A stretch of 63,411 nt of DNA, the filler included, from Folioceros fuciformis (lineage: Eukaryota), in the NCBI GenBank assembly GCA_049999805.1. It is 14 parts of 14 records of this genome, joined end to end, with 100 filler letters (N's around TTAATTAATTAA, not from the genome) between each part and the next. Parts side by side here need not be neighbours in the genome. Positions count along the whole stretch, not along the records: positions 37,501 to 41,021 come from JBNGIO010001176.1; 13 more parts are not named here. One strand, 5' to 3'. Numbering within the stretch: position 1 is the first letter of the stretch; each line of letters starts with the position of its first letter. The position numbers and the translations under genes were made by a program. Of the stretch, positions 5,014 through 61,400 are shown one piece after another. The notes below the pieces were generated by a model, which saw only the letters and a list, made by a program, of their open reading frames with translations, had not been told where the DNA came from and searched no databases.

Positions 5014-5113
5014 NNNNNNNNNNNNNNNNNNNNNNNNNNNNNNNNNNNNNNNNNNNNTTAATTAATTAANNNNNNNNNNNNNNNNNNNNNNNNNNNNNNN
5101 NNNNNNNNNNNNN
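5014..5113. other. Artificial contig spacer (first of 13)
   Basis: 44 N + TTAATTAATTAA (stops in all six frames) + 44 N. Identical spacers at 11843, 14687, 20943, 24090, 26988, 34486, 37401, 41022, 46213, 51264, 58553 and 60958. Confidence 0.99.
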
Positions 5114-11842: not shown

Positions 11843-11942
11843 NNNNNNNNNNNNNNNNNNNNNNNNNNNNNNNNNNNNNNNNNNNNTTAATTAATTAANN
11901 NNNNNNNNNNNNNNNNNNNNNNNNNNNNNNNNNNNNNNNNNN

Positions 11943-15784: not shown

Positions 15785-15799
15785 AAATGATAGCTGCTG

Positions 15800-18700
15800 A
15801 TGAGTGAAGAAGGGTTGTACAGGACGCCCTCCTGGCTGCAGCATCTTGCAAGTGAAGCTGGTCTGATAGACCTTGATGACGAAGATTTAAACACAGACAC
15901 TAGGTCTGCGGGGGGCACGGATGTTGATTCAGCACGAGCGTCAGTAGCTACCAACTGGTCAGATCCAAGTAGAAGAATGGGTGATTTAGACAACAAAGCG
16001 AGGGAGGATGTGCTCCAGGCACTTCAATCTCTTACCAGTGGCGGGTTTAAGGAAAAGGACCGCCTTGTTACTGGAAGCGAATACGATATATGGGCGATGC
16101 GCATGCAAGGCGCACTTGAAGAAAAGAATTTGTGGCACATGGTGAATGGGGAGACTCTCAAACCTGATGTAACCTCCGCAGACATGCCGGTTTGGCATTT
16201 GGCTGACATCCGAGCAAAGAACCTGATTAGATCAGGTTTGTCTCCAGAGATGATGAGGCAAGGCTCCGATGGGCCTGGGGACTCTGCCATGGACATGTGG
16301 ACGCACCTGGCAACGATGTTTGCATCCCACGATATGGTGGCTTCCATGGCTGCATCAGCAAAATACCACTCTCTTAGAATGCAGGAGGGTGAGACAGTGG
16401 AGCACTATGTTGCACGTTTTCGCATTGCCCGAGCCAAGCTAAGTTCTACAGGAACGAAGATTACCGACTATGATGCCAGTTGCAGATTGTTGAATTCACT
16501 TCCTCCGAGCTACGGGCCCTTTGTCACCGGCCAGCAAGCCATGGCGAAGGTCGAAGCTCGTCTCTCAAAGGCTTTGAAGATTGACGCTGAACCCCTTACA
16601 TTTAACGGTGTGGTGGGGGCTATGCTTCAAGAGGAAGCAACTCGGCTGTCCTCTCGCTCTGGGAAACAGCAAGTGCAGGGCCAGCAAGCCCTCTTTGCTG
16701 GTAGGGGCAAGCCCTACAGAAGAGGACGAGGAGGCTGGAATGCAAGCAGGGGCGGCAGGTCCAATTTCAGTGGACCTGGTCAAGCCTCAAGTAATCAGAA
16801 AAAGTCTGGAAATTGTAACTGGTGTGGCATACCTGGCCACTGGGCTCGAGATTGTCGCAAGCGACAAGCTGGTGAGCCGAGAAAGGAGAGTGCTGGCTCT
16901 CCGGAAGCACATGCTGTGCAAGCTTCTAGGAAGAAGCCGACACAGGTCATATTAACTGTGTGTCTTACAACATCTGGCCCTCACACTCCTGCTTGGTTCA
17001 TAGACTCGGGTGCATCGGCGCACATCTGCCATGATCGTGCACAGTTTTGTGATTACCAGCATTATCAAGATGTACAGTCAGTACTCCTTGGAGATGACAG
17101 CACTCTTCCAATTGTAGGGACAGGGAAGGTTACCTTGCAGCTGCATCATGGGAGGAAATTGGAGCTGTTGAACGTCCTTCATGTCCCGGCAGTGACGAAG
17201 AATTTGTTATCTGTTCGTAGGCTTACTTCAGATACTGGCATGCAAGTTAATTTCCGTGGAGAGAAATGTACAATCACCAATGGTGCACAACCAGATGAGG
17301 TGTTGGCTGAAGGGTATCCAGTCAACGATATTTACCAGCTGAGTGTAGTTGGGAGTCGCTTGCCCATATTACATGTTGCTGGTGTATCTACAGGTCTCTC
17401 CCCTAGTGAGACTGCCATGCTTTGGCATCTGCGCTGTGGTCACCCACATGAACGAAAGCTGTTATCAATGGCCAAGAGTTCTCTCTATTCAGATGGCATA
17501 CCAGGTTCAGTGGGGGCTCTACCTTTGTGTGAATCCTGCATTTATGGCAAGCATCATGAGTTTGCATTTGACAAGGATGGAGCTCATCGTGCCTCTGCAC
17601 CCCTGGAGTTAGTCCATTCGGACATTTGTGGCCCTATTTCTGTACCGTCGATTGGTGGAGGTGAATATTTTTTGACGTTCATCGACGATTTCACCCGCTA
17701 TTGCATTTTGTATATCCTGAAATACAAGAGTGAGACACTTCAGCGCTTTCAAGATTATCTGTTGATGGGAGAACGACAGACTGGCCACAAACTTCGATGC
17801 CTAAGATCCGACAATGGTGGGGAGTATACCTCAGGGGCCTTCCATGCATATTGTCGGTCTCTCGGCATCCAGAGGCAGCTTACAGTTCCGCATACAGCTC
17901 AATTAAATGGCGTGGCTGAAAAGAAAAATCAGTTGCTTCAGGAGACTGCTAGAGCACTGCTAAAACAATCTCGTCTGCCTCGAGGTTATTGGGCTGAGGC
18001 CATTAACACAACAAACTATTTATTGAACAGACTACCTACTCGAGTTGTACCTGGTCAGACCCCGTTTGAGGCATGGTGGGGCAGGAAGCCTGCATTCCAA
18101 CACCTTCGAATCTTTGGTGTACCTGCTTACGCCTTTGTTCCAAAGCCCAAGCGAAGAACCAAGCTGCATGATCGAGCACACAAGTTAGTGTTCATTGGAT
18201 ATACGGATGGTATAAAGGCCTATAAACTGTATGACCCTGCAACACGTGATGTCAGTCATGCTAGAAGTGTGTTGTTCGATGAACGAAGGGTAATGCGGCC
18301 ACCTACAGCCACTCTTGACACTGGCAGTGGTGTAGAGCAAATCCCAGCTGTGGTCACCGAACATGATGAGGAAGAAGACTTGCTTGAGGACCTTCAGGTG
18401 TTGAGCCAAGTTGATGTGGACACTCTGGAAGTGTCTAATTTTGATCAGTCAGGCGAGGACGATGAAAACATGCTGGAACCAGATGCAGACGATGATTTAT
18501 CTCCAGAACATGATCCTGGCGATCTGGAGCATGTACCTGAAGTGGGGGCCAAAGTTGATGACGATGTCGGTTTGGATGGAGCTGAACAGCCACCTGAAGA
18601 GCAGCCTCGGAGGTACAGTTTGAGAGAGAGGAATAGACCGTGGAAGGAGCCTCCTTTGGAGATGGAGGACTGGCGGCCTGTAGTGACACGCAAATCTAAG

Positions 18701-20462
18701 TCTAGAAAGCAGAAAAGCAACAAGGATCAGGGCAGTACATCTGCTGCTACTGATGTGCCACCAGTTGGGGCACCTGGATCTGGCGGAGAACCTCAGAGTG
18801 CTGGACATCCAGAAGAGGAGACAACACCTTCTACAGCCTATGTACAGGCTTTACTTGCAGCAACCACCGATTCCACGGAACCTGCAAACATGCAGCAGGC
18901 ATATTCAGGTCCTGAAGAAAAATTCTGGAAGAAAGCAGTAGATGAGGAGTATTCCTCAATCATAAAAAATGGAACATGGACTCTAGTTGAATTACCTGAG
19001 GGTAGAAAGCCCATATCCTGCAAGTGGGTATTTAAACGTAAAATGAATGCTGATGGTAGTATAGCAAGGTACAAGGCCCGCTTGGTCGCGAGAGGTTTCT
19101 CTCAGATTCCTGGAGTTGATTATTTCGACACTTTCGCACCAGTTGTCAAATTCTCTACCTTGCGCATGGTTCTGGCTCTGGCTGCCCACATGGATTTAGA
19201 CCTGGAACAAATGGATGTAAAAACGGCGTTTTTGCATGGCATGCTGGAGGAGGACCTGTACATGGAACAACCAGAGGGTTATGTTAAGCCAAATGCTGGT
19301 CACCTAGTCTGCAAACTACAGAAGACTCTGTACGGGCTCAAACAGAGCCCTCGAGCCTGGAATCAGAGAATTGATTCACACCTGAAGAGACTGGAATTCA
19401 AGCAGGGCACTGCTGACCCTGGCTGGTATGTGCTGCAAGAAGGTGGAGAGTTCCTGATCCTGTTACTATACGTTGATGATTTGATTCTGGCAGCTACCAA
19501 GGGCAAGGGAAGCCTTCTTCAGAAAGTAAAGGATCTCCTGAGGCGAGAATTCGAAATGACCGAGCTTGGGGAATTGACCTGGTGCCTAGGCATAGAAATT
19601 AAACGAGACAGGAAAGCACGGAGACTGTCCATATTTCAGAGGAAGTACATTAGGGACAGCCTTAAGAAATTTAACATGAGTGAAGCAAATGGGAGTGCCA
19701 CCCCTCTTGCTGCAGGACTGAGACTGCAGAAAAACATGGGTCAGCTAACCTCAGAAGAAGCAGAAGAAATGGCACGAACGCCATACAGGCATGTTGTTGG
19801 CACCTTGATTTATCTCTCAAATGTTACCAGGCCGGACATTGCTTTTCCAGTCAGTCTAGAATCCCAATTCCTGGACAGTCCACATCCAGAGCATTGGAGT
19901 CAAGTAAAAAGAACCTTTCGCTATCTGAAGAGCACTGCAAATTTCGGCATAACCTATGTGGGCACAGAGGACCAGGATCTCACCCTTGAAGGTTACTGCG
20001 ATTCTGACTGGGCTTCGGACCTGGACAGCAGAAAATCACTGTCAGCCTTTGTATTTATGCTTGCTGGAGGTCCCATTTCTTGGACCAGCAAGAAGCAAGC
20101 TACTATTTCTACTTCCAGCACAGAAGCGGAATATAAGGCTTTAACAGTTGCAGCTAAAGAAGCGATTTGGGTGAGAAGGAACCTGGCAGATGTGGGGGTA
20201 ACCCCAGAGGGAGGCAACCATCCTTCACTGTGATAACCAAGGGGCTGTTGCATTATCAAGAAATCCGGTTTTCCACTCCAAGGTCAAACACATGGAAATA
20301 CATCATCACTTCATTCGCGAAGTGGTAGGAAATGGACAAATTGCAGTCATCTACATATCTACTGCCGAAAATCCGGCTGATTTACTCACAAAAGCCTTGT
20401 CTAAAGAACAGCATAACAAGCATGCAGCAAGACTGGGCATAGCAGTCTGCAGTGAGGAATGA
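15800..20462 (+). CDS. Copia Gag-Pol polyprotein with one frameshift in RNase H (about 20210)
   Basis: 1477-aa ORF: zinc knuckle CNWCGIPGHWARDC, protease FIDSGAS, LWHLRCGH, integrase HSDICGP..RSDNGGEY, RT YVDDL, RNase H YCDSDW..EAEY. It continues in another frame as ATILHCDNQGAVALSRNPVFHSKVKH..NPADLLTK to TGA at 20460-20462. Confidence 0.95.
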
Positions 20463-24050: not shown

Positions 24051-24189
24051 GGGATCATCTTACTTTGATATTATAATGTACATGCAAACNNNNNNNNNNN
24101 NNNNNNNNNNNNNNNNNNNNNNNNNNNNNNNNNTTAATTAATTAANNNNNNNNNNNNNNNNNNNNNNNNNNNNNNNNNNNNNNNNNNNN

Positions 24190-26114
24190 GTTGTTCCATG
24201 ATTCATGTGCAACTCATCCCTTAATTCTTTCACAAAGTGATCCTCCCTTTCATAATCTTTTGCTCCATTATGTTTGCAATGGTGGATCATCTTTTCAGAG
24301 TCTTTACTCAAGATTCCAAAATTATTCAAAACTCTCTCTTTATTGAATACTTGATTATCATTTCTAGTTACAAAGTGGTCCCTATCGTGAATTACAAGGT
24401 CCTTAGCAATCTCCTCTCTTTGACTATGATATCCACTCAAAGCATCCATGAAGTTTGAAGAGAATTCTTGATTTGTTGGGTTATAACACCGGCTTCCACA
24501 TTCCTTACCATTGTAATTTAATTCATGGCCAAGATGTTGTTCCTTTTGAGATTGCGAATCTCCATCTTGAACCCTTTCTTTCATGATAGAGTCTTGGGTG
24601 GCTCCCAAACACTCTCTTACAGTGGTGGAGTGATCAACACTGTGAATGTGTTGTTCTTTGAAATGGGAAACATCAGCTCGATAGTCTTTCAAGAAACATT
24701 GAGGATGCACAACCCTATCCTTGATAAAGGTTTCACCGGCACCTCGAAGTTTGATGTTACTATTCAGGGCTTGTTGATGATGAACATTCATGTTGCTCAT
24801 GCATTGCTCACTTGCTCGAACTCTATATTGATCTGAAACCTTACGACGTGCTCTTTCTCTTTTCTCCTCCTTCTCATTCTGAATAGCATGCAGTGAGAAG
24901 AAAACTATTTCGTCCATCTGAGGAGGCAGACTAGCATCTTTTCTCTCCTTGTTGGTCATTTCTTTGAAGTAGTTCTTTGTGGACCCAGGTGCACCGTCAG
25001 GTGATCCCATGGGCCCAACAAATTGCCACTCTCTTACTGCTTTGTAGTCCTTCATCATATTCTCCCACTTGTCTTGACACTGGCTTCCACTTCTTCCCAT
25101 ATCTTTCGATTCCATATGCATAGCTACAATGCGCCATTTCTCAGCTGCTGGCAACTTCACTCCAGAAGCCTTATACAAATAACATCTCTCCCTCTCGTCT
25201 TTCTTTGCATCTATCAAAGTTAGCATCTCTGTCACCGTCCAAGGAGCACTTCGACTCCTTTTCTTGGGCACATTCATCATAGGGCTTGGAATACTAATTC
25301 CCGAGCATGGAATATTAATCATATTAGTGCCATTGCCAGAGCTACTTTGACAAGCTAGAGTAGAGGCATTGTTAGTGAGTTGTATTGCGCTTGTGTTAAT
25401 CATACTCAAAGAGCTACAATCCAGGCTTGTGCCATTGAAGGTTAAAGGACCCCTTGTGTTACAACAACCATTACTCATGATTCCTACATTATTCAATATA
25501 ACACCATTGTTTGTCTTTGAGATACCATTTGAGTTGGTGTTGTGAATATGCAAACCATTCCTCTTCGTCATGCTATTCATGGTATCAGTAAGGGACATTC
25601 CATCTACTTTAGGAGAATGTCCCATATGCGTCACTGGCGAGTTATGAAATCCACAGAAAGAGCTCGAAAGAATAGTTACAGAGCCATTAGCTGTATCATT
25701 GAATGCATTTTGACGTAACACTAAAACATTGGATGTCTTGTTTGTATTGAGTCCATCTACAACAGTTGCAACATCCTCATTACCAATGAAGTCACTGATT
25801 CTCTCAAAATCAGTTGTGATTTTGGATTCCTCATTCTCAATCTGCCCAACAAGCAGAGAAGGAGGCTTCTGCAGCCAATCGTTTGGAGTTAGCTGAACCT
25901 CTTCTTTACTATTTGTTTGTTGAGGACTAGCACGTACCGCTGTGATATTGTTACTTGCTTTATTCTTTTTCAAACTGAGGCTACTACTTGAAGTGCGAGG
26001 AGAAGACACACATGAAGTGATGATAATATTGTTGTTATCTACAACTTGAATAAGAGCATCTAGTGTCTCATTTGCTGGATTGGACACTTCCATTTTTGCC
26101 TTCAAAACAGACAT
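24190..26114 (-). CDS. Trihelix (Myb/SANT-like) DNA-binding protein with a long N/S-rich N-terminus; 3' end cut by the fragment edge
   Basis: RSAPWTVTEMLTLIDAKK..AEKWRIVAMHM..RSGSQCQDKWENMMKDYKAVREWQ..NYFKEMTNKERKDASLPPQMD within an uninterrupted ORF of more than 600 codons. Confidence 0.88.
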
Positions 26115-27239
26115 ATGCAAGATGTCATGAGCATCCTTTTAGACCTTTCCAAAGACACAAGAACCCAATACTTCAATCATGTAAGTATTGATTATGTAAA
26201 TTATTGGCTTTCATAGTTTACACACATTGACAAAAAAGATAACCTGGCCAAGTATCTCTTCTTTGCAGTTCGGAACCTCAAGCTATCAAATCCAATTATC
26301 AATGCTTTGCTACTACCTGGATTAGCAAATGGTTGAACATGATGCAGTGATGGTACGAAAGCTATGTAAATTCACATACACCAATTTTTGCATTGGTAGT
26401 TGAACTTGTGCAGCTAGTAAGTAGTGTATGATAAAGAAATAGTCTCAGCAAAAAGCTTAAAGTTGTTAAAGCTTAAAGCACTATTATAACATACTTACAA
26501 GCCAAGACAAGTTCATTTGAATTGCATGGTCCATCAAATCTCTGAGCGTCTTTAGAGGTCGCAAAAACTCTTTTTTTTCTGACGTTTGTCAAAAATTCCT
26601 TACAAACAGTGGTGAGCACAATGTTTTCACGTCTGTACATGCTGAGACGCACGGTTTGAAAGAAGAGTTTACTGTGTTAATCACCTTGATTACATTCAAT
26701 TTGTTGAAAATACATCACTTGTAACACCTAAAATATAGAAGAGACTACAATTCCATGAGCGTTTGATGTAGAGAATTTTATGGTTTGGTTTGTGGTTGCT
26801 TCACATGAAATGAGAGAAAGGTGTTTTGGTTTGTATTCTCTTCACATGAAAAGTGGAGACGACTTTTGTTGTCTAGTGAAAAGGGGTTGGTTAGCTTAGG
26901 AAGTGGTGAGTATTCAGAGCAACTGTCTACAGCATGTCCGGACGCCATGACATTGGCAGTTATCCATAAGTAACTTAAAGGCTTAACNNNNNNNNNNNNN
27001 NNNNNNNNNNNNNNNNNNNNNNNNNNNNNNNTTAATTAATTAANNNNNNNNNNNNNNNNNNNNNNNNNNNNNNNNNNNNNNNNNNNNGGAAAAAAGGATG
27101 ATATTCTGATAGTGTTTCAGATGGAGCGGGATAGTGTGAAGTCAGCTCTGTACAGGTTTGCTGTTTTAGTAGCTCTTATTTACGCCTCATGCCTTATAGC
27201 GGCTAAGCTCATAGGGCACAAGCTCAACTCTTCAATGAA

Positions 27240-37400: not shown

Positions 37401-37544
37401 NNNNNNNNNNNNNNNNNNNNNNNNNNNNNNNNNNNNNNNNNNNNTTAATTAATTAANNNNNNNNNNNNNNNNNNNNNNNNNNNNNNNNNNNNNNNNNNNN
37501 TAAGTTGAAAAAGAAAACCAAACCATACCACTATTAACCCTTTT

Positions 37545-38305
37545 TCAACCAAAACAAACTACTACCCCAAACTTTGGAGGTTCACAACGAGGGAAGCTCC
37601 CCACAGCATCTAAGTCATCATTAGTGGTTTTGGCAATGGGGTTGATGTTGGTCATGTTCGGCTCAAACTCAGAGGTTTTCAGCTCAACTAGAATCGGAGC
37701 TGAAGGCAAAGCCCTCATTGGAGGGCGCTCAACAATGGGGAGAGTGCCCATCATAGGCTCATATGCGTGCAGAGTAGCTCGACGTGTTATAGGCTGTTCG
37801 CGTCCTCCACTCTCGCCAATGCTGCTAGCTCTCTTCATGTTGATGTGTTGAGGACTCTGGGCAGGGCTTGCGTTATGTGAGGCTCCAGAGCGTGTCTTCA
37901 TCTTCAGTCTTGCGCGCGAAATCGTTTTGCTAAATAGGAATCTAGCGCAGTGTAGGGTTATTAAAGCCCAATGTGCTTAGACTACTATGTTTAGTCTAAG
38001 ATTAGTGTCTAGTTAAGTATCATTAGTTTAGATTAGCTTAAGCTAATCTGTAGGACGCTTCTTGCGCAGCTTCCTGTGCACTTCTTATGAAGCTTCCTTG
38101 GGAGCTCCTCTAGAGGGTATAAATACCCCCCTGAGCTCCCTTGCAATGTGAGAATCTGTGTGAGAGTATGACCTCTCTTTCTCCTCTCCTCCTTGCTTCC
38201 TCCTCTCCTCCTTCACCATGTGGCTCCTCTAGTGATCCTTCACACGGTATTCAAGGAAGGCAATCAAGAGCTCTGGGCCGTGTACGCTAGGAGTACGCTC
38301 CGTCA
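37545..38305. mobile_element. LTR-like segment (about 37951-38305) with an adjacent minus-strand ORF starting MKTRSG
   Basis: TG...CGTCA boundaries, TATAAATACCCC box and a CT-rich tract. An MxTRS start is common in retrotransposon ORFs. Orientation is ambiguous and no partner LTR is present. Confidence 0.4.
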
Positions 38306-38714
38306 CTAATAGTAGCTGAGGCATAATGGTATACAATGATTATAAATTCAAACCTATGGTTGTATAAACCATGCTGGTTTAGTGGGAGTGTTAGGAATGA
38401 AACCCTAACATAATTTATACCTTAGTTATTAGACTAGAGGTTAATTACATAACTCAAGAGACACATTTCAATTTTGTACTTAAAGACATTTTCCTCTTTA
38501 TTAATTAATGCTTTTCTTACAAGCACGCTTCCGCGTTTATTAGCATATTTCACTTTGGATAAAACCTATCTTCTTGAGATAAGAGTCCATTCTCTCATAC
38601 CATAAGCGTGGTCTTTGCTTTAATTTATAAATGGAACAAATAAGTTTACACATCTTGTTTGGGTATTGCTTATCTTTGTGGTTGACCATCAAGAAAAGCA
38701 ATAAAAACGTTAAG

Positions 38715-39960
38715 CTAGTAAATTTTCAAATTAAGCTTGAAACATAAAGCCAAAAGCATTCTAACTGAAGCAGCCTTGACTATAGGTGAATAAACCTTAT
38801 TGCCCTGATAGTCCACTCCCTCTTTCTTACTATAACTCTTAGCCACTAGTCTCGCCTTGTAGCAAACACAAGGTTCAACCTCTTGGAATTTAGTTTTGAG
38901 AACCCACTTGCATTTGATACTGGTCTTGTGGATTAAGAACACCAAAGTCTTCTTTGTTTTCATAAGGATCAGAAATTGCCTATTCATCTTCCCCCTCTTG
39001 AGCAAAAACATTAGGGATAGGCCCTACTTAAGGTGAAGAGGCCAGGGAGGGACTAGAAGTGCCAGGACGAGAGTTAGGGAAAATAGAGAGCCGAGTCAAA
39101 AACTCAAGCATAAGGTCACTTGGGCCGATAAAAGCAGTGTCATCTGAAGGAGTCAAAGTAGAATCCATGGATACAGAATGAGCATATACTAACCAAGCCT
39201 CATCAAAAGTGACAGTGCAAGCATATACAAGAGCATAGATATCCAAGTCAACCAATTTATAAGCCTTACAGCCTTCACCATAGCCAACAAACACCACCTT
39301 GTGAGCGCGAGTAGAAAGCTTGTCGTGAAGCTAAGAGGAAATATGAGCATAAGCTGGGCAGCCAAAAATCTGAAGATGAGTGATAAGAGGCTTGTATCCA
39401 TGCGAAGACTCAAAGAGAGTCCGACTGGGAGTTGACTTGAAAAGAAGCTTGTTGCACAGATAAACTGTTTAACTACTTTGGCCCATAAGGATTTGGGGAG
39501 CTGAGTGCGGGCTAGCATTGCACGGGCCATGGCAAGCATATCGGCATTGGTCTTTTCAGCAACCCAATTCTACTAAGAAGTATAGGGAACCGTAATCTGA
39601 AAGATAATCCCCCTCTCAACACAGAAATCCTTGAATTGCCAGTTATTTAATTCTCCTGCATTGTCAGATCTAATGCATTGAAGCTTGCAACCAATTTGTA
39701 GCTCAGCCATAGTCACAAAAGGAGTTGAAGGAATCACCCTTCAGCTTGAGTGGAATATCAAAAGTATAGCAACTATAGTCATCAACAATAGTCATAAAGT
39801 GTAGTGCATTGCCAAGTGAAAGGATTGGGAGTGGACCACAAAGATCAACAGTGACAAACTCCAAGCGCTAAGTAGCCTGACGGGCAAGTAGAGTAGGATA
39901 GGGGAAGCTATGTTGTTTAGCATATATACAAGGTTCACATAACAATGGAGTTTTGTAAAA
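38715..39960 (-). mobile_element. Decayed Ty1/copia integrase to start of RT
   Basis: MARAMLARTQLPKSLWA, VFVGYGEGCKAYKL, IKCKWVLK..YKARLVAK. Heavily frameshifted. Confidence 0.85.
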
Positions 39961-40754
39961 AGTGTGGTAGCTTATAACAAGGTTTGTGCCTAACGGTCAG
40001 ATTCCACAAAGTCCGTTTCGTGCACAGTTGAGTTTACATCATCTTGGTCACATCTACATTTTAGCCTTTTTTTCAAAAAACACGTATATTGACGTGTGTT
40101 GGGCATAAACAATCTCCATTTGTTTGCTTCAAGACCAAGATGATGTGAGACTTGTGCCCTTTCAAACTTCAAAAATTTTTAAAACAAGAATCTTGCTTTT
40201 AGTGCGCCAGTGTACCGTCTCACTAAAGTTCATGTTTGTCGGAGGGGAAATTGTGTGTCTGCATGTCGTGTATTAAAAAATGACATAATCAAATATGTTT
40301 ATGTGTATATTATACCATCCACTTCCACTATGCTCAGCACAAACTTAAACAAAAACATGATCGTCTTGGTTGGCTTCGAAATCCACAACTACATCTACAT
40401 CTTTCAGGCGCTAGCCCTTTGTGTCTCCGAAGTTGTCACCCTCCACTTCCAAAATAGAGAAATGCGACCCGGGTCATCCACTGTCTAAGGCGGGATTGTC
40501 TCGTTCTCATCCCATACTGCCATAGCATGCGTATAGGTCTTCAGCTGGTCTGTCGTCCTACTGAGAAAGGATCTCTCCTTTTTTCCCCAAAAAATTGAAT
40601 ACGTGCATCCAACAATCAACGCTACCATCCGCGCAGACTTCTTTGGCCCAAAACTTCGCGGGCCTATGCGAGAATGGTTCTGTGCTGATCTCCTTATCAG
40701 AGTCTGGCAAAGACCCTATGCCACTCACCCACTGCATAATGTAAGTGGTGCATC

Positions 40755-40975
40755 TTATGACAAATCCACTACAACAACATGCCTTGCTCTTTGAATCGTA
40801 GACTGTAGAAATGAATCGAATCCTGCACAACCATCCACCACCCAATCCCCTTTAACAGAGAACTTATTCACCAACATACCCATTAAACCAAGGGGCTTCT
40901 GGTAAGACGAGACAACTAGGGGATCTGAAGAGTGTAACAAATGTTTCTTCACAACAGCTCCATGTCTTATAACTC
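40755..40975 (-). pseudogene. Fragment resembling the C-terminal SAM-binding part of an N4-cytosine/N6-adenine DNA methyltransferase (beta class)
   Basis: YQKPLGLMGMLVNKFSVKGDWVVDGCAGFDSFLQSTIQRARHVVVVDLS matches the family pattern QKP..L...I...S..GD.VLD.F.GSG......A....R..IG.E/D. It is flanked by stops and the upstream part is cut by the fragment edge. Confidence 0.6.
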
Positions 40976-41592
40976 ATGTCAATAGGATCGACTCCAGTCT
41001 ACGTGCAAGTGTAGGAGAGGANNNNNNNNNNNNNNNNNNNNNNNNNNNNNNNNNNNNNNNNNNNNTTAATTAATTAANNNNNNNNNNNNNNNNNNNNNNN
41101 NNNNNNNNNNNNNNNNNNNNNGGTTTGTATATACTTAATTATACTTAACTATCTATTCTAATAAGTGTTGAAACTTAATAAAAAATAATACTGATAAATA
41201 TCAAAAAATTTAAAATATGTAAATATAAATGTTGAACCTTTATTTTCTAATAAAAAATAAATTTGAATATAGATTTGTTGAATCATCCTTTAAGCTATAG
41301 TATGCTAAATATTGGACTCAAAATGCAAGATGATGGTGTTTGGATAAATATTAATTTTCTGGAACATTTATGGAAGCATAGAGCTCAATATGTTTTTTAG
41401 CTTGAAGTTGCAAAAATTTGTAATAGAGTCATCCCATTCCATTAAAAGGTGGTGAACGGAGTTATGAAACCCAAATTTCAGCCTTCTCCTTCATATCCTT
41501 GAGAGGGTTGTAAGCCATTTCTGTCACAACATGAGAGCTACAAGGACAACATATGACATACACATAATAATTTTATATTTAAAGGACATGCA

Positions 41593-43105: not shown

Positions 43106-43167
43106 TTTGCAGAGAATTTCCTGTCGCACAAGGTACGGACTTATGGTCTCCCTCAACGTGAAACTTG

Positions 43168-43239
43168 TGCGTCTGCCGGGAGTCGAACCCGGATCTATTG
43201 CTTGGAAGGCAATTATCCTGACCGTTGGACTACAAACGC
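43168..43239 (-). tRNA. tRNA-Gly (anticodon TCC)
   Basis: Reverse complement GCGTTTGTAGTCCAACGGTCAGGATAATTGCCTTCCAAGCAATAGATCCGGGTTCGACTCCCGGCAGACGCA. 72 nt, folds as a cloverleaf, GGTTCGA T-loop; resembles plant nuclear tRNA-Gly(TCC). Confidence 0.95.
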
Positions 43240-52376: not shown

Positions 52377-54504
52377 TCACGAATTCAACTGTGGGTAGAA
52401 TGTGACAGTTGTGGATGGTAGCCATGTCGAACCCTGAATGAAATTGTTCAGGAGGAACTCCTGGACCTGATCTGGTGTGTAGAATTGGTGGACTCCAGGC
52501 CATTTCACTCTGTCGGTTATCCCACCTCCTGGCCCCCGGCTGTTGTACTCCGCGTAGTATAGGGTTTGCAGAAACAAGTCTCCATTCCAAGGAAGCCATC
52601 CTGCGGGCTGGATGACCTTGTCCAAGGTGCTGTCCAGGATGATAGTTCTTGAAAAGTTTTTCCATGGCCTCCCCAGATACGTCCTGCAATGGGGAACAGC
52701 GATCCGTTAGGGGAGCTTTCACACACTCTGAACCCAGCTGTGGCTTCCACAAGCAGCTGTAACTCACAGGAAGGCGCTAGTGTTGGCCGAGTATGCTGGT
52801 GATGGTTGAAAGTCGCAATCTTGGAACACCAGTCCCGTATTCTGGTTAGGATCTGTTCTACCCTGAGCAGTGAAAATGTTTTGCTGAAGAACCAGCCCAG
52901 TGTCGGCAACGAGGGTGCAGTTTTGGAAGAAAGCTGCCGCGTTCCCAAATATGAAGTCCACAGTGCCCTGGACGATACATTGGCTGTAGAACTGTCGGTA
53001 ACTATGTGCATACAAGGTGTCTTGATACCCGACGGCTTTCACTTGGAACAAGGCCGACTGGTCAGCTGAAACCCTAATGGCTACAGCTTGATGGTTCGCT
53101 GCTCCTGCCGTGTTCTGGACGGTGAACCAGATCCCAATAAACCCGGCACCACTCACGGCTGCAAAACTCAATAGAAGAGTTTGTCAATGAAACCATACGA
53201 TTCAGAATACCATGAATGCATCCTCGTCGCGGAAACGAATCCTCACCCAAAGTCGCTGAGCGGAAGGTCGTCGTCCCTCCAAAAACACTCTTGTTGTCTG
53301 TGAGGACGGTTTTGTCGATCCCAGCTCCGACGAACGCAAGATTTGTCTTATTCTTAGAAACCTTGACTTGCCCCTGAAACGTACCTTCCGCGATCTGAAT
53401 GACGTAAATTATGTCGCTATGATCAGGAGCTTCGTCCACAGCATCTTGGATGCTTTGTCCAGCTCCCACAATAGCGTCAGCAGTCCTGCTCGAAATCTCG
53501 TCGAGCAAGCGGCGCAGGTGCACTTCTCTGTCAGGCCAATCTGGGAGCGCATCGTGTTGCCCCAAGCTAACCGCTTGAGGAGAGTTTGAATCTGTTGACA
53601 ACAGCTTTCTCAATCCGAGTCCACTGACACTGGGAAGTTTAGAGCTGAATGATCTGAGGTAATTGGCGAAGTAGAGGACGATGGAGTACAGCTGTCTCAC
53701 ATGATCACCACCTGTTGTCAATGGATCATCAGGCTGGAGAGGGTACTGCACATTCGTAGAGCGCAACGAAAAGTTCGAAGAACTGGTTGCTGGATAGTTG
53801 GGGTAGTTGTAAGCTATAAGCAACCCTTCAAGGCAAGTATCGTGATAGGTTGCTGATGCCGACAGCCATGTTTGGAGGTTGTTCAGTCCCTGCTTCAGAG
53901 TACCCAGATTGTGCAAGCCGTCGAGCTCCATACTGGATACACTTAGTTGCCTCCACGCTTCGTCCAGCAACTGCACAAACGCAGATGAGTAGGTTCTCTC
54001 ACCTTATGCCCTGAAAACTGTCCCAGCAATCGTGCAGACCAGGGCCGCAGGAACACACCGAATACGACATAGTCACAGCGTACTTACTTCACCACAGGTT
54101 GTCAAGACCTCAGTCCTGCTCGGATTGCTGTCGGCTAGTCTGATGAGCAAATCCGCCTCCGCTATAGATTGGTTGAGGGCGGTCTGTAACGTCTGGATCA
54201 GGTATGCGATGAAATCCTTAGGCTTCGCAGTGGAGTGGTTCGGATCACCCTGCAAAATAGTGGTACAGGTGTTGACGTACATCGTCCCACTGCAGATAGC
54301 CTTGATAAGCAACAAGCCAGCGGGAACGTCCTGGCCGTGATGATGCTTGCGACTCGCCACCACCCCCACCACGATGACGAGGATGAGCACAACCACGGCC
54401 ACCGGAACTCCAAACAAGCACCATTTCACTTTGCTGGACCGGCCAGCGCGAGTAATCGTGTACTCGGCCGGGTAGGGAAGATTGCGGTTGCCTGGAGACT
54501 TCAT
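52377..54504 (-). CDS. Pectin methylesterase with N-terminal TM anchor and PMEI pro-domain (copy 1), 4 exons
   Basis: LQTWLSASATYHDTC, RKLL and RRLL processing motifs, TTFRSAT, HQAVAIRVSAD, YQDTLYAH, GTVDFIFG, TAQGRTDPNQNTG, YLGRPWK, YYAEYNSRGPG. Confidence 0.95.
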
Positions 54505-56343: not shown

Positions 56344-58466
56344 TCACGAATTTAGCTGTGGGTAAAAGGTGACAGATGTTGAAGGTAACCATGTGGACCC
56401 TTCGATGAAACTGTTCACAAGGAAACTTTGGATCTGACTTGGATCCGACACCTGATGGACTCCAGGCCATCTCACTCTGCCAGTAGTCCCACCTCCAGGT
56501 CCCCAGCTGTCATACTCCGCATAGTACAGGGTGTCCAGAAACAAGTCTCCATTCCAAGGAAGCCAACCTACGGGCTCGATGATGGAGTCCAAGTAGTTGT
56601 GCAGGAGGATAGTTCTGGAGTAATTTTTCCATGGCCTGCCCAGATACGACCTGCAATCGGAGCGGAACAAAGAGTCATTAGGAAATCTCGCACGAAGTCT
56701 GAAACCGGCTACAACCTCCACGATAAGTTGACAAAGTCCGGATAACTCACAAGTAGGCGCCAACGTTTAGAGAGTATCGAGGTGATGGTTGAAAGCTGCA
56801 ATCTTGGAAAACCAAGCCTGTGTTCTGGCCAGGATCTGTTCTACCCTGGGCAGTGAAAGTGTTTTGCTGACCAAGTATCCCAATATCAGCAATGAGGGTG
56901 GAGTTTTGGATGAAAGCTGCTCCGTTCCCGAACATAAAGTCCACAGTCCCCTGGACTATACACTGGCTGTAGAATTGACGGAAAGAGTGACAATACAGGG
57001 TATCTTGAAACCCGATAGCTTGCACCTGGAAAAGGGCCGATTTGTCAGCTGAAACCCTGAGTGCCACAGCTTGATGGTTCTCTGCTCCTGCAGTGTTGTT
57101 GACCGTAAACCCAATCCCAAGAAACCCGGCACCGTTCACGGCTGCAACAAAACAACAGAGACGTGGTCACTAAGAAGATGCAGCTCGTGGCTTCAATTCA
57201 ATGAGCTGCTTCACCGGCTAAAGCATGAGCTCACCTAAAGTTGCTGAACGGAAGGTCGTCGTCCCTCCAACGACACTCTTGCTGTCGGTGATTATGGTTT
57301 GATTGATCCCGGCTCCCAGGAACACAATATTCGTCTGCTTCTTAGAGATCTTGATTTGTCCCTCGAATGTGCCTGCAGCGATCTTAATGATATAAAGAGA
57401 AGGGCTATTGTCCGGAGCATTGTCCACAGCATCTTGGATGCTTCCACCAGGTTGTACATCGGCATCAGGTACCCTGCTCCAAACCTCGTCGAGCAAGCGG
57501 CGTAGGTGCCTTTCCCTGTCAGCCCATCCTGGAAGGGCATCCTGGTGCCCCAAGCCAAAGCCGTGCACAGAGTCATCTGTCGACAACAGCTTCCTGAGTC
57601 CACTCCCACCGAGACTGGGAAGTTTACTGCTATATGATCGAAGATAACCAACCATGGAGAGGACGATGCTGTACAGCTGCCTTATATGTTCACCATCACC
57701 TGTCACTGGATCAGAAGGCTCAACAGGGTAGCGGGAATCCGTAAAACTCAAGGGATAGCCCGACCTATTGGTCAGAGGATAGTTAAGGTTAGCAGCGACC
57801 AACAACTCTTCCAGACAAGTATCGTGATACGTTGCCGATGCTGACAGCCACGTTTGGAGGTCGTTCAGTCCCTGCTCCAGTGTGCGCGGATCGTTCAACC
57901 CCTTGAGGTCCGTAATAGACACGCTGAGCTGACTCCACGCTTCGTCCAGCAACTGCACAACGCAGACCAGACACCTACCTCTCTCAGAACCAGCCCTAAC
58001 GAGCCGCAATGCCAAAACCGCGGTAGCACGACACCAACAGTCACGCAAGTCTCACCTCACTGCAGGTGTCCAAGGCCGCAGCCGCAGTCGAGTTCACATC
58101 CGTTTGGGGGATGAGCAGCCCCACCAACGACAAGGAGGTATTGAGAGCGATCTGCAACGTCTGAATGAGGTACAAGGTGAGCTCCTTAGGGTTGGCAGTG
58201 TCGCGATTGGGGTCTCCGTTCAACGTGCTGTTACAAGTGTCGGGGTACAGCGTCCCGCTACAGATGGACCTGATAGCCGACGATCCAGTAGGGACGTCGT
58301 GGTCCTTATGATGCTTCCGGGTCGCCACCACCGACACCACAATGATAAGGATGAGCACAACCACCGCCACGGGGACTCCAACCAAGCACCATTTCCTCTG
58401 GCTGGATCGCTTAGCCCCAGGATACTCGTTCGGGTACGCGGGATTGAGGTGGCCGTACGCCTTCAT
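56344..58466 (-). CDS. Pectin methylesterase with TM anchor and PMEI pro-domain (copy 2), 4 exons
   Basis: Same exon layout as copy 1. FQDTLYCH, GTVDFMFG, YLGRPWK, RKLL and RRLL; ends TFYPQLNS*. Confidence 0.95.
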
Positions 58467-61400
58467 CTTCCTCCCTCGGATCAGTCCCCTCACCACTCAG
58501 TCCCCCTCTCCCGGCACCTAAACCACAGGCCACGAGACCACCTCACCCCTCCNNNNNNNNNNNNNNNNNNNNNNNNNNNNNNNNNNNNNNNNNNNNTTAA
58601 TTAATTAANNNNNNNNNNNNNNNNNNNNNNNNNNNNNNNNNNNNNNNNNNNNGTCTAACTTCGTCGTTAGGCTGTCCACTTGGGCGGGCTTTTTGGCCGC
58701 CCTCTTAATGAGGCAGGAAACAATCTTCAATGCCAAGTCTTTCGCAAAGTGGTCATCCAACACGAGGTCTAGATTTTCAAGGTCGAACTTAGAGTCGACC
58801 TCTGGTTGTCAACCATCACAAGCAATCGCTAAGAATAATATTCAAGGAAATTACATGAAGTAGTTGTAAAAAGACTAAAAAATAAGGATCATAACCGCCT
58901 ACTTTATGAAATTGGATTCAAGTTATGTTTTGAAGTGAACCTAGCATGTGGTAGATATGAGTGACTTGATATCACTACCTTCTTAATAGTGCAATGTTCC
59001 TCCAAGCTTTCTTTCATCCTTTAATAACTCGAGATACTACATCTCATATGCTTGATCCTCATAGGCCCAGGAGGTACTGGAGTATGATAAATAAGATGTA
59101 TTATGACAAGGTGTCTTGGGTTATTTGAAGATGATTCAAGAATTCCCAGACGTAGGTTCTATTCAGCTCTATTCTGCTTTGTTTGGCACCTGTTAGACGA
59201 TGTTAGTCAAGGTGGAACGCATCATAGCAGAGCACAGCTCTACCAAGAGCAACCGACGAACCCAACCAAATTAGACCCAAATACTCAAAGCATTGCCATG
59301 GCAGCATCGTCCTCTTATCTTTGGAGTAGATAAGACATTCCATCTCATTTTCAATAATAAAAAAATAATTAAACTTTTGTGGAATAGAAAAGTGGTATGC
59401 ATGACCCCAATCCCCAAACCTTACTACCTTACTTTTGTCTGCATTTAGAATAAAACACCCACTAATCAGTCATGTTTTGATCATCCTAGAAAGGAAAGTA
59501 TGTTTCCACAATTGTTTCAATGTACTTACATAAATTCTAAGCTTGTTATCCATTGACTTTATTTTGGAAACTACTTAAACTAGTAGTGAGGCATGAGTCG
59601 TTGATTTTGTCGGAGACTTGGAAACTACTTAGATCAGTGGTGGCTCTACAAGTTCCAAAGTGGTTCATAATTGTTGATTTGCTACATATTTGGAAACTAA
59701 CTAAAGTGATATTAAGTATTTCCCTTAAACAACTCTATTTAAGCTCTTTGTTTGTAGGCTTAATATCAAGTTGCTCCGTATTAAGTTTATGAAGGTCCAA
59801 CCTTACCCAGACTTCAAAATCATTTGAAACCTACAGCTGTGGGTATAAATTTTATGCAAGAGTTGAGTGATAATATAGAGACCTCAATTGTGGCACAAAA
59901 CGAATCATCTAAGAAGGGATAAGGAGACTTGCATCTGTAGTAATGCAATTCCTACAAATCAAAAGATGTAGATCATGCCGTTGGTGATCGATAGGGGTCA
60001 GAGAAGCACAACTATCTGGTCGCCAATTCAACATCCACAATGCAGCGGAATTTCTCGACGGTGGTTCCTATTACAGCACCTAAGGGCATGGATTCAACTA
60101 CATCTTTTGATGTTACTGACAATGCTTAAGAAAATTTATCAATGGTCACAAATGTTTTTCTTAATACTTACAACAAAGATCAAAAGAATTTATCAAGTCT
60201 ACCGTCTTTCCTTCGCCTTATCCATACTTGATTGGTGGGAGGAGTTGGTTTTTAGTATCCTTTTGTTGCAAATTTTTTTTATTTTTGTATTTTTTTTATT
60301 TGTATGTTTTTTCAGGATCATTGTGGAACACCTTAATTGTTTCTAACTAGATATATTTGTATAAGGTATATTTGGATTCCTACTTTTCTTGGCTATAATA
60401 TGGTTCAAGTTGTTTATTACATATGCCGTAGTGCTCATCACAATATTTGTAGTTGGTACTCAATTGTGGTTCAAGTTTCAATTTTGGTAACACCGCATGT
60501 AAGGATGTCATGTGCCTATCCGATTCTATTGTTTCATTAAAGCATATTGTTCATTTTTGCATGACATCACCCAACAATGTTTTGAAGATTCGTCATTTTA
60601 GTTAAATGATTTTGCACGTTTCTAGGTCGAATATCAAGTGTACAAGAGGAATTATGAGGGGAAGGTTTACTAGATCACATCCCAGCTTGTGGAACTACTC
60701 GTCATATGAATTTTCTTGTTTTTCACATTTTTTTTATGATCATATTGGTGTTGCTACTTAGCACGACCCATGGTTGTTTTGATTGTTTAATAAATTAGCA
60801 TGAGATTATTGCTTTACAAGATCAATTGTAAAGTTAGTACCCATGGTCATGTTATGGCCATTCATAACTCCTTGCTATTGAAACGATATCTAAAAAGATG
60901 AGGTTCTTCGAAACCCTCTTTTATATCTTGAGGTTTCTTCTCTATGCCAAAAAAACTNNNNNNNNNNNNNNNNNNNNNNNNNNNNNNNNNNNNNNNNNNN
61001 NTTAATTAATTAANNNNNNNNNNNNNNNNNNNNNNNNNNNNNNNNNNNNNNNNNNNNATGACACACCTCAAAACTACCCTCAAGTAGAACAAGCAACAGG
61101 AATTTATCAATGGGGACAACACATGGTGTATGATATATCTCAAAATTGCCCTCAAGTAGAATAAGCTCTGGCAATTCAACCAGCTCTGGAAATTCAACAA
61201 CAACAAGTTTATGAGGTTTATCAAGTTCCTCATGTCAATGAATGAGACCATATATCTTTCAATAACTTGGAGGATTTCATGATGAATATGGGTGAAGACC
61301 ATGATCCACAACAACAACAACCTCACCAAGAGGACAACTCGCAACCACAATTACATCATCAACAACATGAAGTTCATGAAGAACACATAATGCATCAACA

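What the first reader, a model, noticed from the sequence alone, without database searches (positions are those of the whole stretch)
40755..40975. Relic of a prokaryote-type N4mC/N6mA DNA methyltransferase inside plant repeat DNA
Seen: the minus strand encodes YQKPLGLMGMLVNKFSVKGDWVVDGCAGFDS...RHVVVVDLS, on the same fragment as a copia remnant and separated from it by a T/A-run-rich stretch. Known: QKP..L...S..GD.V.D...G.G followed by an acidic residue ending the next strand is the motif X/I/II signature of beta-class N6_N4_Mtase enzymes. These are mainly bacterial, but horizontally acquired N4-cytosine methylases are described in Marchantia and bdelloid rotifers. Inference: this is a decayed copy of an amino-methyltransferase carried by a transposon or acquired horizontally, and intact copies may exist elsewhere in the genome. 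This copy looks dead (flanking stops, GSG changed to GFD), and the catalytic DPPY/SPPY half lies beyond the fragment edge.
Basis: partly seen in the sequence, partly recalled or inferred. Interest (0 to 1): 0.75.

Follow-up and report, generated by a model that had tools for sequence, protein, structure and literature searches.

The report
Dead DNA-methylase gene fragment in plant repeats
A short, broken piece of a DNA amino-methyltransferase gene sits among plant repeats; it belongs to a eukaryotic gene family resembling one that algal giant transposons carry, and this copy is dead.

Summary
The minus strand at 40755-40973 is a 72-codon open frame with the quoted peptide, and homology to relatives spans 40740-40982.

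Alone it scores below Pfam's N6_N4_Mtase threshold (13.8 bits against 26.7). An exhaustive search of 1.84 billion proteins gave 17 hits, the best at E 1.1e-8. Fifteen of them carry PF01555; the other two are repeat proteins.

The relatives look eukaryotic. One family is a five-member, mostly decayed set of Ginkgo gene models, and some metagenome loci contain introns. Several share an N-terminal domain that may be ParB-like. Their catalytic motif reads D[IL]P[YHR]G, or DPPF in one locus. The closest solved structures are CcrM, MboIIA and RsrI, with rotifer N4CMT further off.

The window copy is dead:
- an in-frame TGA replaces a conserved Asn;
- motif I reads GFD instead of GSG;
- a TAA removes the last helix;
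- its tree branch is about ten times longer than its neighbours'.

Homology ends where a high-copy repeat starts, 45 bp before the contig end.

ParB-like plus N4C/N6A methylase proteins are described as accessory genes of giant algal transposons (PMC12477816). I therefore read this as a relic of such a gene in a land plant. It is a new member of a known kind, of modest interest.

The parts
40740..40982 (-). Whole stretch homologous to the C-terminal (AdoMet-binding) half of the eukaryote-like N6_N4 methyltransferase family; about 81 codons, read through two stops
   Evidence: tblastn of 18 relatives against the whole window found this one place only. P0001 residues 219-297 align at 43% identity.
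40755..40973 (-).
   Evidence: phmmer best E 1.1e-8; Pfam PF01555 E 0.057, 13.8 bits, profile positions 164-210 of 221
40974..40976 (-). In-frame TGA at the position where relatives have the conserved Asn of T-N-V-F/I-R-E
   Evidence: alignments (window 'LT*VIRH' against 'FTNVFRE' / 'VTNVFLE')
40893..40904 (-). Y-Q-K-P (motif X); Q, K and P are invariant and Y nearly invariant in the family alignment
   Evidence: A1 invariant columns Q246, K247, P248 and nearly invariant Y245
40812..40835 (-). Motif I region D-G-C-A-G-F-D-S; relatives read D-G-C-S/A-G-S/A-G-S, so the second glycine of the AdoMet loop is Asp here
40764..40781 (-). H-V-V-V-V-D, the strand after motif I that ends in an acidic residue (motif II)
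   Evidence: aligned with N-V-V/I-A-V-D of P0001 and P0003; corresponds to strand E294-299 of the P0003 model
40752..40754 (-). TAA stop that cuts the frame before the last helix of the domain (H302-319 in the P0003 model)
39943..40739 (.). 797-bp spacer with no recognisable coding homology, between the relic and the copia remnant; one bin (40569-40686) has raised word depth
   Evidence: no Pfam or NCBIfam hits for its frames; depth; 42% GC
38555..39942 (-). Truncated, frame-shifted copia remnant (pre-integrase, integrase, SH3, first part of RT); no gag or protease, no LTR pair on the contig
40977..41021 (+). Start of a high-copy repeat (begins TGTCAATAGG..., LTR-like 5' TG) that abuts the relic and ends the contig
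   Evidence: summed word depth 5145 / 7062 in bin 40923-41021 against 8-12 for unique parts; joint 38014->40977 in runs X1 and X2, with only 24 letters on the short side; sequence. The exact boundary is inferred.
37951..38242 (.). Very high-copy repeat at the other end of the contig
   Evidence: word depth up to 68,764 / 86,007, with loose ends at 37950/37951 and 38242

Best explanation
The stretch 40740-40982 (minus strand) is a pseudogenised fragment of a eukaryotic gene. That gene encoded a beta-class (circularly permuted, motif IV ... X-I-II) DNA amino-methyltransferase of Pfam family N6_N4_Mtase. Only the AdoMet-binding C-terminal part survives: motif X (YQKP), motif I and the following strand.

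Shown here:
- homology to the family;
- membership of a eukaryote-like subgroup;
- the disabling changes;
- the repeat-rich setting.

Inferred: the parent gene was an accessory gene of a transposable element. [quoted passage not shown] In an intact copy the N-terminal domain would bind DNA, possibly the element's own repeats, and the C-terminal domain would transfer a methyl group from AdoMet to the exocyclic amino group of a flipped adenine or cytosine.

The copy in this window does nothing. It lacks the catalytic half, has an in-frame stop, has a spoiled AdoMet loop, lacks the last helix, and has drifted far. It is junk DNA lying between a truncated copia and a high-copy repeat in a land-plant genome.
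For: Homology:
- phmmer best E 1.1e-8; 15 of 17 hits are PF01555 proteins.
- A profile of the family including the window piece hits 11 solved beta-class DNA methylases at E<=0.01, with CcrM at 7.2e-13. A twelfth hit is an rRNA adenine methylase at 0.0044.
- The model of the closest full-length relative P0003 (pLDDT 69.9, core above 90) matches CcrM, MboIIA, N4CMT, M1.HpyAVI, M.BceJIV, RsrI and PvuII.

Eukaryote-like clade:
- P0017 is a Ginkgo gene model with four paralogues at 58-95% identity.
- Metagenome loci L001, L005, L014 and L016 have 48-50% GC and stop-ridden intron-like gaps inside the gene.
- The window peptide aligns over 66-72 residues with this clade, but only over residues 25-72 with Myxococcota and Binatia enzymes.
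- In a tree of 33 rows and 77 columns the window falls in the 'DGC' subgroup (P0001, P0002, P0003, P0012, P0018). Support is 93/97, and 98% of 200 bootstrap trees.

Decay:
- TGA in place of a conserved Asn, GSG changed to GFD, and TAA before the last helix.
- End branch of 1.46 against 0.055-0.19 for the other five members.
- No other piece of the gene anywhere in the window.

Repeat or transposon setting:
- The contig holds only a truncated copia, an anonymous spacer and high-copy repeats at both ends.
- Word depth over 40805-40922 is 91 / 147 against 8.3 / 12.4 where one perfect contig covers. The tool warns that this is not a copy number.
- Four of the five Ginkgo models carry internal deletions or altered motifs.

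Architecture: a conserved N-terminal domain (30-36% identity between Ginkgo, L001 and L005; invariant F-D..N.Y..Y..GG.....A) precedes the methylase.

Literature:
- Passages of 10.1101/2025.02.11.637652 describe PF01555+SET (PAG2) and ParB+2OG-oxygenase (PAG3) genes in red-algal Plavaka, Mutator and Zisupton elements.
Against: - The peptide alone does not pass Pfam's threshold (13.8 against 26.7 bits). It has no PDB hit, no NCBIfam hit and no hit in the word-indexed search for longer proteins.
- No transposase, terminal inverted repeats or target-site duplication were seen near the relic or in the short relatives' loci, so the transposon link is circumstantial.
- The source genome is not held, so copy number and intact copies could not be examined.
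- The ParB-like nature of the N-terminal domain is weakly supported. DUF6551 matched at E 0.019-0.032 in 3 of 5 Ginkgo models and in none of the L001 / L005 frames. A ParB_N cluster appears only at rank 16 of feature look-alikes. The fold model was unusable (pLDDT 42.7). A profile search of the PDB found no ParB.
- No sequence of the algal accessory proteins was in hand, so direct kinship with them is untested.
- The clade that holds the window has support 93/97, below the tool's starred level, on only 77 columns, and the window is a long branch.
Confidence: 0.7

Rival explanations
1. It is a pseudogene of a domesticated host gene, not a transposon gene. On this reading an old eukaryotic acquisition of a beta-class amino-methyltransferase duplicated and decayed in some land plants, comparable in status to Marchantia DN4MT1 or rotifer N4CMT.
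For: Annotated gene models exist in Ginkgo. Relatives have introns and long acidic tails typical of nuclear genes. No transposase was seen next to any relative.
Against: The family is multi-copy and mostly broken in Ginkgo. The relic lies in a contig made only of repeats, with raised word depth. Proteins of the same two-part description are reported as transposon accessory genes in algae (PMC12477816). Motif IV differs from the (T)SPPY of DN4MT1.
Confidence: 0.2
2. It is a relic of an endogenised large DNA virus, or of a recent bacterial or phage transfer, into the plant genome.
For: The nearest large named clusters in the ESM Atlas for P0003 are phage (Uroviricota) PF01555 families, by feature look-alikes only. 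ParB plus methylase is a common phage and prophage pairing (passages of PMC4738411).
Against: A scan of IMG/VR gave 3 pattern matches and none was confirmed as a relative (the method depends on one peptide pattern). Bacterial relatives match only two thirds of the peptide, at lower scores, and have 57-71% GC against 41.6% here. The closest relatives are intron-bearing or plant gene models.
Confidence: 0.06
3. It is an assembly contaminant or chimera, with microbial DNA fused to plant repeat DNA.
For: The contig is short (3.5 kb), unplaced, and ends in repeats. Only two runs of one sample hold it.
Against: A 735-base contig with no differences spans 39914-40648 in two runs, joining the copia remnant to within 107 bp of the frame. 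All 30 depth bins are covered in X1 and X2. GC matches the rest of the contig. The relatives are eukaryote-like. The two runs come from one sample and may be the assembly's own data, so this is not independent support.
Confidence: 0.03
4. It is a chance open frame with a generic Rossmann-fold methyltransferase look (GxG loop plus an acidic strand end), or a piece of an RNA or small-molecule methyltransferase.
For: The Pfam score is below threshold, and generic motif I and II features are shared by all class I methyltransferases.
Against: E 1.1e-8 against 1.84 billion proteins. All 15 non-repetitive hits are PF01555, and similarity covers the 24 residues upstream of YQKP, which are specific to this clade.
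Confidence: 0.01

Closest known systems
ParB-like plus N4C/N6A DNA-methyltransferase accessory proteins of giant algal DNA transposons: Ectocarpus Sola1-1_Ec32 (PMC12477816); red-algal Plavaka, Mutator and Zisupton PAG2/PAG3 (10.1101/2025.02.11.637652)
   Same: A PF01555-type DNA amino-methylase domain in a eukaryotic, multi-copy, repeat-associated gene. Full-length relatives of the relic have a conserved N-terminal domain with weak ParB-like signals in front of the methylase.
   Different: Those proteins are reported from algae inside defined transposons. Here the host is a land plant and no transposon structure was seen. Red-algal PAG2 pairs the methylase with SET, not ParB. No direct sequence comparison was possible. 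The copy here is a dead 243-bp piece.
Bacterial beta-class N6-adenine DNA methyltransferases CcrM (6pbd), M.MboIIA (1g60), M.RsrI (1eg2), M1.HpyAVI/DpnA (5hek, 5hfj)
   Same: Same fold and permuted motif order. These are the best sequence-profile and structure matches of the family. QKP...GD.V.D..G.G is shared.
   Different: Identity is only 13-20% at the structure level. The bacterial enzymes have DPPY or DPPF, while full-length relatives here have DLPRG, DIPYG or DIPHG (DPPFG in L005). The eukaryote-like clade has W after GD, 'DLC/DGC' instead of 'DPF', and a clade-specific 24-residue lead-in.
Eukaryotic N4-cytosine methyltransferases of bacterial origin: bdelloid N4CMT (8s9m, 8s9n, 8s9o; PMC8885841) and Marchantia MpDN4MT1a/b (10.1101/2021.02.12.428880)
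   Same: PF01555-type beta-class enzymes resident in eukaryotic genomes. N4CMT structures are among the matches.
   Different: N4CMT scores much lower than CcrM against the family profile (6e-6 against 7e-13). DN4MT1 has TSPPY. N4CMT is fused to a chromodomain and was reported to have no eukaryotic homologues (passages). No Marchantia sequence was available for a tree.
Methyltransferase domain of DIRS1 retrotransposons (passages of PMC4738411)
   Same: A transposon-borne adenine-methylase-like domain in eukaryotes, judged inactive.
   Different: It belongs to a different group (PCIF1-related, not permuted), is part of a retrotransposon polyprotein, and is not PF01555.

Membership tests
Pfam PF01555 N6_N4_Mtase (beta-class DNA amino-methyltransferases) | Profile match at or above the curated gathering score | tested here: not met
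   The window peptide scores 13.8 bits, E 0.057, against a cut-off of 26.7. A fragment covering profile positions 164-210 of 221 cannot easily reach it.
Pfam PF01555 N6_N4_Mtase (beta-class DNA amino-methyltransferases) | Significant homology to bona fide members (transitive) | tested here: met
   phmmer E 1.1e-8 to 7.8e-4 to 15 proteins, 14 of which pass the PF01555 cut-off themselves. The family profile hits CcrM at 7.2e-13.
Pfam PF01555 N6_N4_Mtase (beta-class DNA amino-methyltransferases) | Motif X (..QKP..L), then motif I, then a strand ending in an acidic residue, in that order and spacing | tested here: met
   YQKP, GDW.VD, G.G-position and VVVD align without gaps to relatives.
Pfam PF01555 N6_N4_Mtase (beta-class DNA amino-methyltransferases) | Intact glycine loop of motif I (F.G.G type) | tested here: not met
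   The window reads A-G-F-D-S where the subgroup reads S/A-G-S/A-G-S. Some other members also lack the second Gly (P0016 GSA, P0019 GSN), so this alone does not prove inactivity.
Pfam PF01555 N6_N4_Mtase (beta-class DNA amino-methyltransferases) | Catalytic motif IV (D/S)PP(Y/F) upstream of motif X | tested here: not met
   No homologous sequence lies upstream of 40982, nor anywhere else in the window. Full-length relatives read DLPRG (P0001, P0003), DIPYG (P0015, L001), DIPHG (P0017) or DPPFG (L005).
Algal transposon accessory proteins (ParB-like plus N4C/N6A DNA methylase) | ParB-like DNA-binding domain N-terminal to the methylase | tested here: inconclusive
   A conserved N-domain exists in Ginkgo models, L001 and L005. 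DUF6551 matched at E 0.019-0.032 in 3 of 5 Ginkgo models and nothing matched in L001 or L005. A ParB_N cluster appears at rank 16, score 0.93. The model had pLDDT 42.7. There was no ParB in the PDB profile search. That DUF6551 belongs with ParB-type folds is my recollection and was not checked.
Algal transposon accessory proteins (ParB-like plus N4C/N6A DNA methylase) | Gene lies inside a DNA transposon (terminal repeats, transposase, target-site duplication) | not testable with these tools
   The source genome is not held. The contig is 3.5 kb, and the relatives' loci are 1-4 kb around the gene.
Algal transposon accessory proteins (ParB-like plus N4C/N6A DNA methylase) | Specific sequence kinship with Sola1-1_Ec32 or PAG2 proteins | not tested
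bioRxiv supplements are closed, and I did not open those of PMC12477816.
Eukaryotic N4C methyltransferases (MpDN4MT1, bdelloid N4CMT) | (T)SPPY-type motif IV and closest kinship to N4C enzymes | tested here: not met
   Relatives carry D-type motifs, and the family profile prefers N6A enzymes (CcrM 7e-13, N4CMT 6e-6). The motif is absent from the window itself. The TSPPY statement comes from passages.

The most novel reading that the evidence does not exclude
Land plants, including seed plants (Ginkgo and the unnamed plant of this window), carry a lineage of transposon-borne ParB-like / beta-class DNA amino-methyltransferases so far described only in algae. It has a non-canonical catalytic motif, D[IL]P[YHR]G. 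Somewhere in these large genomes intact copies would still write 6mA or 4mC, perhaps on their own element, which would be a source of non-5mC DNA methylation in plants that current surveys do not consider.
Probability: 0.2. Interest if true: 0.65.

Novelty: new member of a known kind. Interest (0 to 1): 0.35.

Why it matters
The fragment itself is inert. Its value is as a pointer.

A survey of eukaryotic adenine methylases states that land plants show few N6A methyltransferases (passages of PMC4738411). The rotifer paper reports no eukaryotic homologues for its PF01555 enzyme (passages of PMC8885841). Here a PF01555 clade with eukaryotic gene structure turns up in a land-plant contig, in five Ginkgo gene models and in several environmental eukaryote-like contigs.

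If intact copies exist and are transposon accessory genes, as in algae, they bear on two questions:
- whether reports of 6mA or 4mC in plant DNA have an enzymatic basis beyond the MT-A70 family;
- how giant-transposon 'self-marking' genes spread across eukaryotes.

My searches for such proteins in land plants returned only the algal papers. That is a limited library, not proof that nothing is in print.

Tried and rejected
Searches with the peptide that found nothing:
- phmmer against the PDB: 0 hits at E<=10.
- NCBIfam with the peptide and two neighbouring frames: nothing.
- Word-indexed search for longer homologues: 22 candidates, none significant.
- Word-indexed search with alignment A1: only 5 proteins.

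Source genome: none is held, so the proposed tBLASTn for intact copies could not be run. Within the window there is no second copy, by blastn and tblastn.

LTR test: no direct repeat pair on the contig, so the relic is not shown to lie inside the copia. The copia remnant lacks gag and protease and stops at 39942.

Other collections:
- IMG/VR scan: 3 pattern matches, none confirmed.
- Sequencing runs: no RNA holder listed.
- Earlier findings of this scan: nothing by sequence, place or words.

N-terminal domain:
- Fold model unusable at pLDDT 42.7, so no fold search was made on it.
- The PDB profile search of A2 found only methylases, through the C-terminal part.
- Pfam found nothing in the L001 and L005 N-terminal frames.

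Methylation calls from SMRT or nanopore data: not possible with these tools.

Rejected reading: that the 38014->40977 joint proves the 2,962-bp block is an insertion into a repeat. The joint has only 24 letters on its short side, which the tool flags as unreliable.

Full report
**What is there**

The window is not one locus. It is 14 short contigs joined by identical linkers (N44-TTAATTAATTAA-N44), and the finding lies in the 3,521-bp contig 37501-41021. Other contigs of the window carry plant genes and elements, so the host is a land plant (or at least a streptophyte). They include two PMEI-pectinesterase frames, a P450, an HlyIII-type protein, FAM91 and an intact copia polyprotein. I did not try to name the plant.

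**Is it more than chance?**

On its own the peptide is a weak Pfam match to N6_N4_Mtase: E 0.057, 13.8 bits against a threshold of 26.7, profile positions 164-210 of 221. It has no PDB or NCBIfam match, and a word-indexed search found nothing.

The exhaustive phmmer search of 1.84 billion representatives settled the question. It gave 17 proteins at E<=1e-3, the best at 1.1e-8 with 44% identity over residues 2-71. Fifteen of the 17 carry PF01555, 14 above threshold and P0016 at 23.3 bits. The remaining two (P0004, P0005) are internally repetitive proteins and look like spurious hits.

The alignment is gapless over the whole peptide. It keeps the invariant Q-K-P, L, W and first G, and the nearly invariant Y, D and R. 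tblastn of the relatives against the whole window finds only this one place, 40740-40982.

**What family?**

A profile of the 16-sequence alignment hits 12 PDB sequences at E<=0.01, and eleven are beta-class DNA amino-methylases:
- CcrM at 7.2e-13;
- TTHA0409, DpnA/M1.HpyAVI, M.BceJIV, MboIIA and RsrI;
- rotifer N4CMT at about 6e-6.

The twelfth is an rRNA adenine methylase at 0.0044.

A model of P0003, the closest full-length relative, has mean pLDDT 69.9, pTM 0.73 and a core above 90. It matches the same enzymes, with CcrM 6pbd at 3.9e-12 followed by MboIIA, N4CMT, M1.HpyAVI, M.BceJIV, RsrI and PvuII. Whether the family acts on adenine N6 or cytosine N4 cannot be told from these data; the better scores go to N6A enzymes.

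**Who are the relatives?**

They do not look bacterial.
- P0017 is a Ginkgo biloba gene model, with four paralogous models at 58-95% identity.
- Four of the five Ginkgo models carry internal deletions or altered motifs (for example DISQG, or motif IV joined directly to motif I). The Ginkgo family therefore looks multi-copy and largely decayed.
- Metagenome loci L001, L005, L014 and L016 have 48-50% GC and stop-ridden, intron-like gaps inside the gene.
- Many relatives have long acidic or low-complexity tails.

Bacterial relatives were found with the same peptide pattern, in Myxococcota and Binatia at 57-71% GC. They have canonical DPPF or DPPY. They match the window peptide only over residues 25-72, at 24-35 bits. 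The eukaryote-like proteins match 66-72 residues at 48-64 bits.

In a maximum-likelihood tree of 33 rows and 77 columns the bacterial rows fall on one side. The window sits in a subgroup with P0001, P0002, P0003, P0012 and P0018, all reading D-G-C/Y before motif I. Support is 93/97, and 98% of 200 bootstrap trees. This is suggestive rather than firm, because the alignment is short and the window is a long branch.

**Architecture of intact relatives**

Ginkgo models, L001 and L005 share a conserved domain upstream of the methylase, at 30-36% identity with invariant F-D..N.Y..Y..GG.....A...L. Its pattern resembles the ParB N-terminal domain, but my tests were weak:
- DUF6551 matched at E 0.019-0.032 in 3 of 5 Ginkgo models.
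- Nothing matched in the L001 or L005 frames.
- Feature look-alikes are mostly unnamed animal proteins and fungal DUF3723, with a ParB_N cluster only at rank 16.
- The model was unusable at pLDDT 42.7.
- The PDB profile search found no ParB.

Motif IV in full-length relatives reads DLPRG (P0001, P0003), DIPYG (P0015, L001), DIPHG (P0017) or DPPFG (L005). A phage-like metagenome member reads DLPYN (P0019), so a D-L/I-P-Y variant is not confined to eukaryotes. The Arg and His variants may be inactive; that is inference.

**State of the window copy**

- An in-frame TGA (40974-40976) stands where relatives have the Asn of T-N-V-F-R-E.
- The AdoMet loop reads G-F-D instead of G-S-G.
- A TAA (40752-40754) removes the last helix, H302-319 of the P0003 model.
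- The end branch in the tree is 1.46 changes per column, against 0.055-0.19 for the other five subgroup members.

Homology ends at about 40977-40982. From 40977 the plus strand begins TGTCAATAGG.... The last depth bin (40923-41021) has summed word depth of 5145 / 7062, against 8-12 for unique parts. Contigs in two runs join 38014 to 40977, though with only 24 letters on the short side. I infer that a high-copy repeat, LTR-like by its 5' TG, abuts the relic. The catalytic half is thus not simply 'beyond the gap'.

On the other side lies a 797-bp anonymous spacer at 42% GC with five A/T runs of 6 or more. After it comes a copia remnant equal to residues 578-1204 of the window's intact copia, with no gag or protease and no LTR pair.

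A perfect 735-base contig in two runs spans 39914-40648, which ties the copia remnant to the spacer. Both runs are from one sample, possibly the assembly's own, so this is not independent support. Word depth over 40805-40922 is about ten times the single-contig level, which hints at further copies at 90% identity or more. The tool warns that this is not a copy number.

**Comparison with what is known**

- Passages of PMC12477816 describe an accessory gene in the 21.5-kb Ectocarpus Sola1-1_Ec32 transposon. [quoted passage not shown] - Passages of 10.1101/2025.02.11.637652 describe PF01555+SET (PAG2) and ParB+2OG-oxygenase (PAG3) genes in red-algal Plavaka, Mutator and Zisupton elements.
- PMC12115072 reports 66 N6_N4_Mtase genes in a red alga (one passage).
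- Marchantia DN4MT1 has TSPPY and clusters with prokaryotic N4C enzymes (passages).
- Rotifer N4CMT carries a chromodomain and was reported to have no eukaryotic homologues (passages).
- The 2015 survey of eukaryotic adenine methylases states that land plants show few N6A methylases (passages of PMC4738411).

My five literature searches returned no paper describing this family in land plants. The library is partial, and bioRxiv supplements are closed.

**Verdict**

The best reading is a dead relic of a eukaryotic, probably transposon-borne, ParB-like / beta-class DNA amino-methyltransferase gene. It is not a recent prokaryotic import and not a relative of the Marchantia or rotifer enzymes. I put about 0.7 on that reading as a whole. 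Homology and decay are near certain; the transposon-accessory origin is about 0.5-0.6.

The fragment has no function. It is a new member of a known kind and of modest interest, chiefly as a lead to look for intact copies in large plant genomes.

Noticed in passing
window 1-63411 (linkers at 5014-5113, 11843-11942... 60958-61057): The window is a chain of 14 short contigs joined by identical N44-TTAATTAATTAA-N44 linkers (13 linkers). Adjacency between contigs therefore means nothing.
   Followed up: yes
window 15794-20233 (+): An uninterrupted 1479-codon copia polyprotein frame with gag, Pol_BBD, gag_pre-integrase, rve, SH3 and full RVT_2. It may be a young or intact element.
   Followed up: partly
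window 53074-54003 (-) and 57218-58051 (-): Two frames on one contig each combine the end of a PMEI domain with the start of a pectinesterase domain. They look like tandem type-I pectin methylesterase genes or exons.
   Followed up: no
window 24138-26138 (-): A 666-codon open frame with a Myb/SANT-like (Myb_DNA-bind_4) domain. It could be a trihelix-type gene or a transposon-associated Myb-like protein.
   Followed up: no
window 43167-43239 (-): tRNA-Gly (anticodon TCC), 70.6 bits in Rfam. It was the only RNA family hit in the window.
   Followed up: no
P0017, P0021-P0024 (Ginkgo gene models): The five paralogous PF01555 models differ by large internal deletions and motif changes. P0024 joins DIPHG directly to DWVLD, P0023 reads DISQG, and P0021 and P0022 lack motif IV. 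The Ginkgo family looks mostly pseudogenised.
   Followed up: partly
L005 about 4099, L014 and L016, L020: In three eukaryote-like metagenome relatives the frame breaks right after the G-S/T-G of motif I and resumes later. This suggests a conserved intron position there. The window copy has no break at that point.
   Followed up: no
P0021 residues 255-430 (N-terminal domain): The best feature look-alikes are unnamed protein clusters from sponges, molluscs and cnidarians, plus fungal DUF3723 (scores 0.94-0.97). From memory, DUF3723 is an accessory gene family of fungal Starship elements; this was not checked.
   Followed up: no
window 37501-37618 and 37855-38326: Summed word depths are extremely high (up to about 115,000) in the DNA runs, and there are a few matches in a run guessed to be RNA. 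These are very abundant repeats at the other end of the contig.
   Followed up: no
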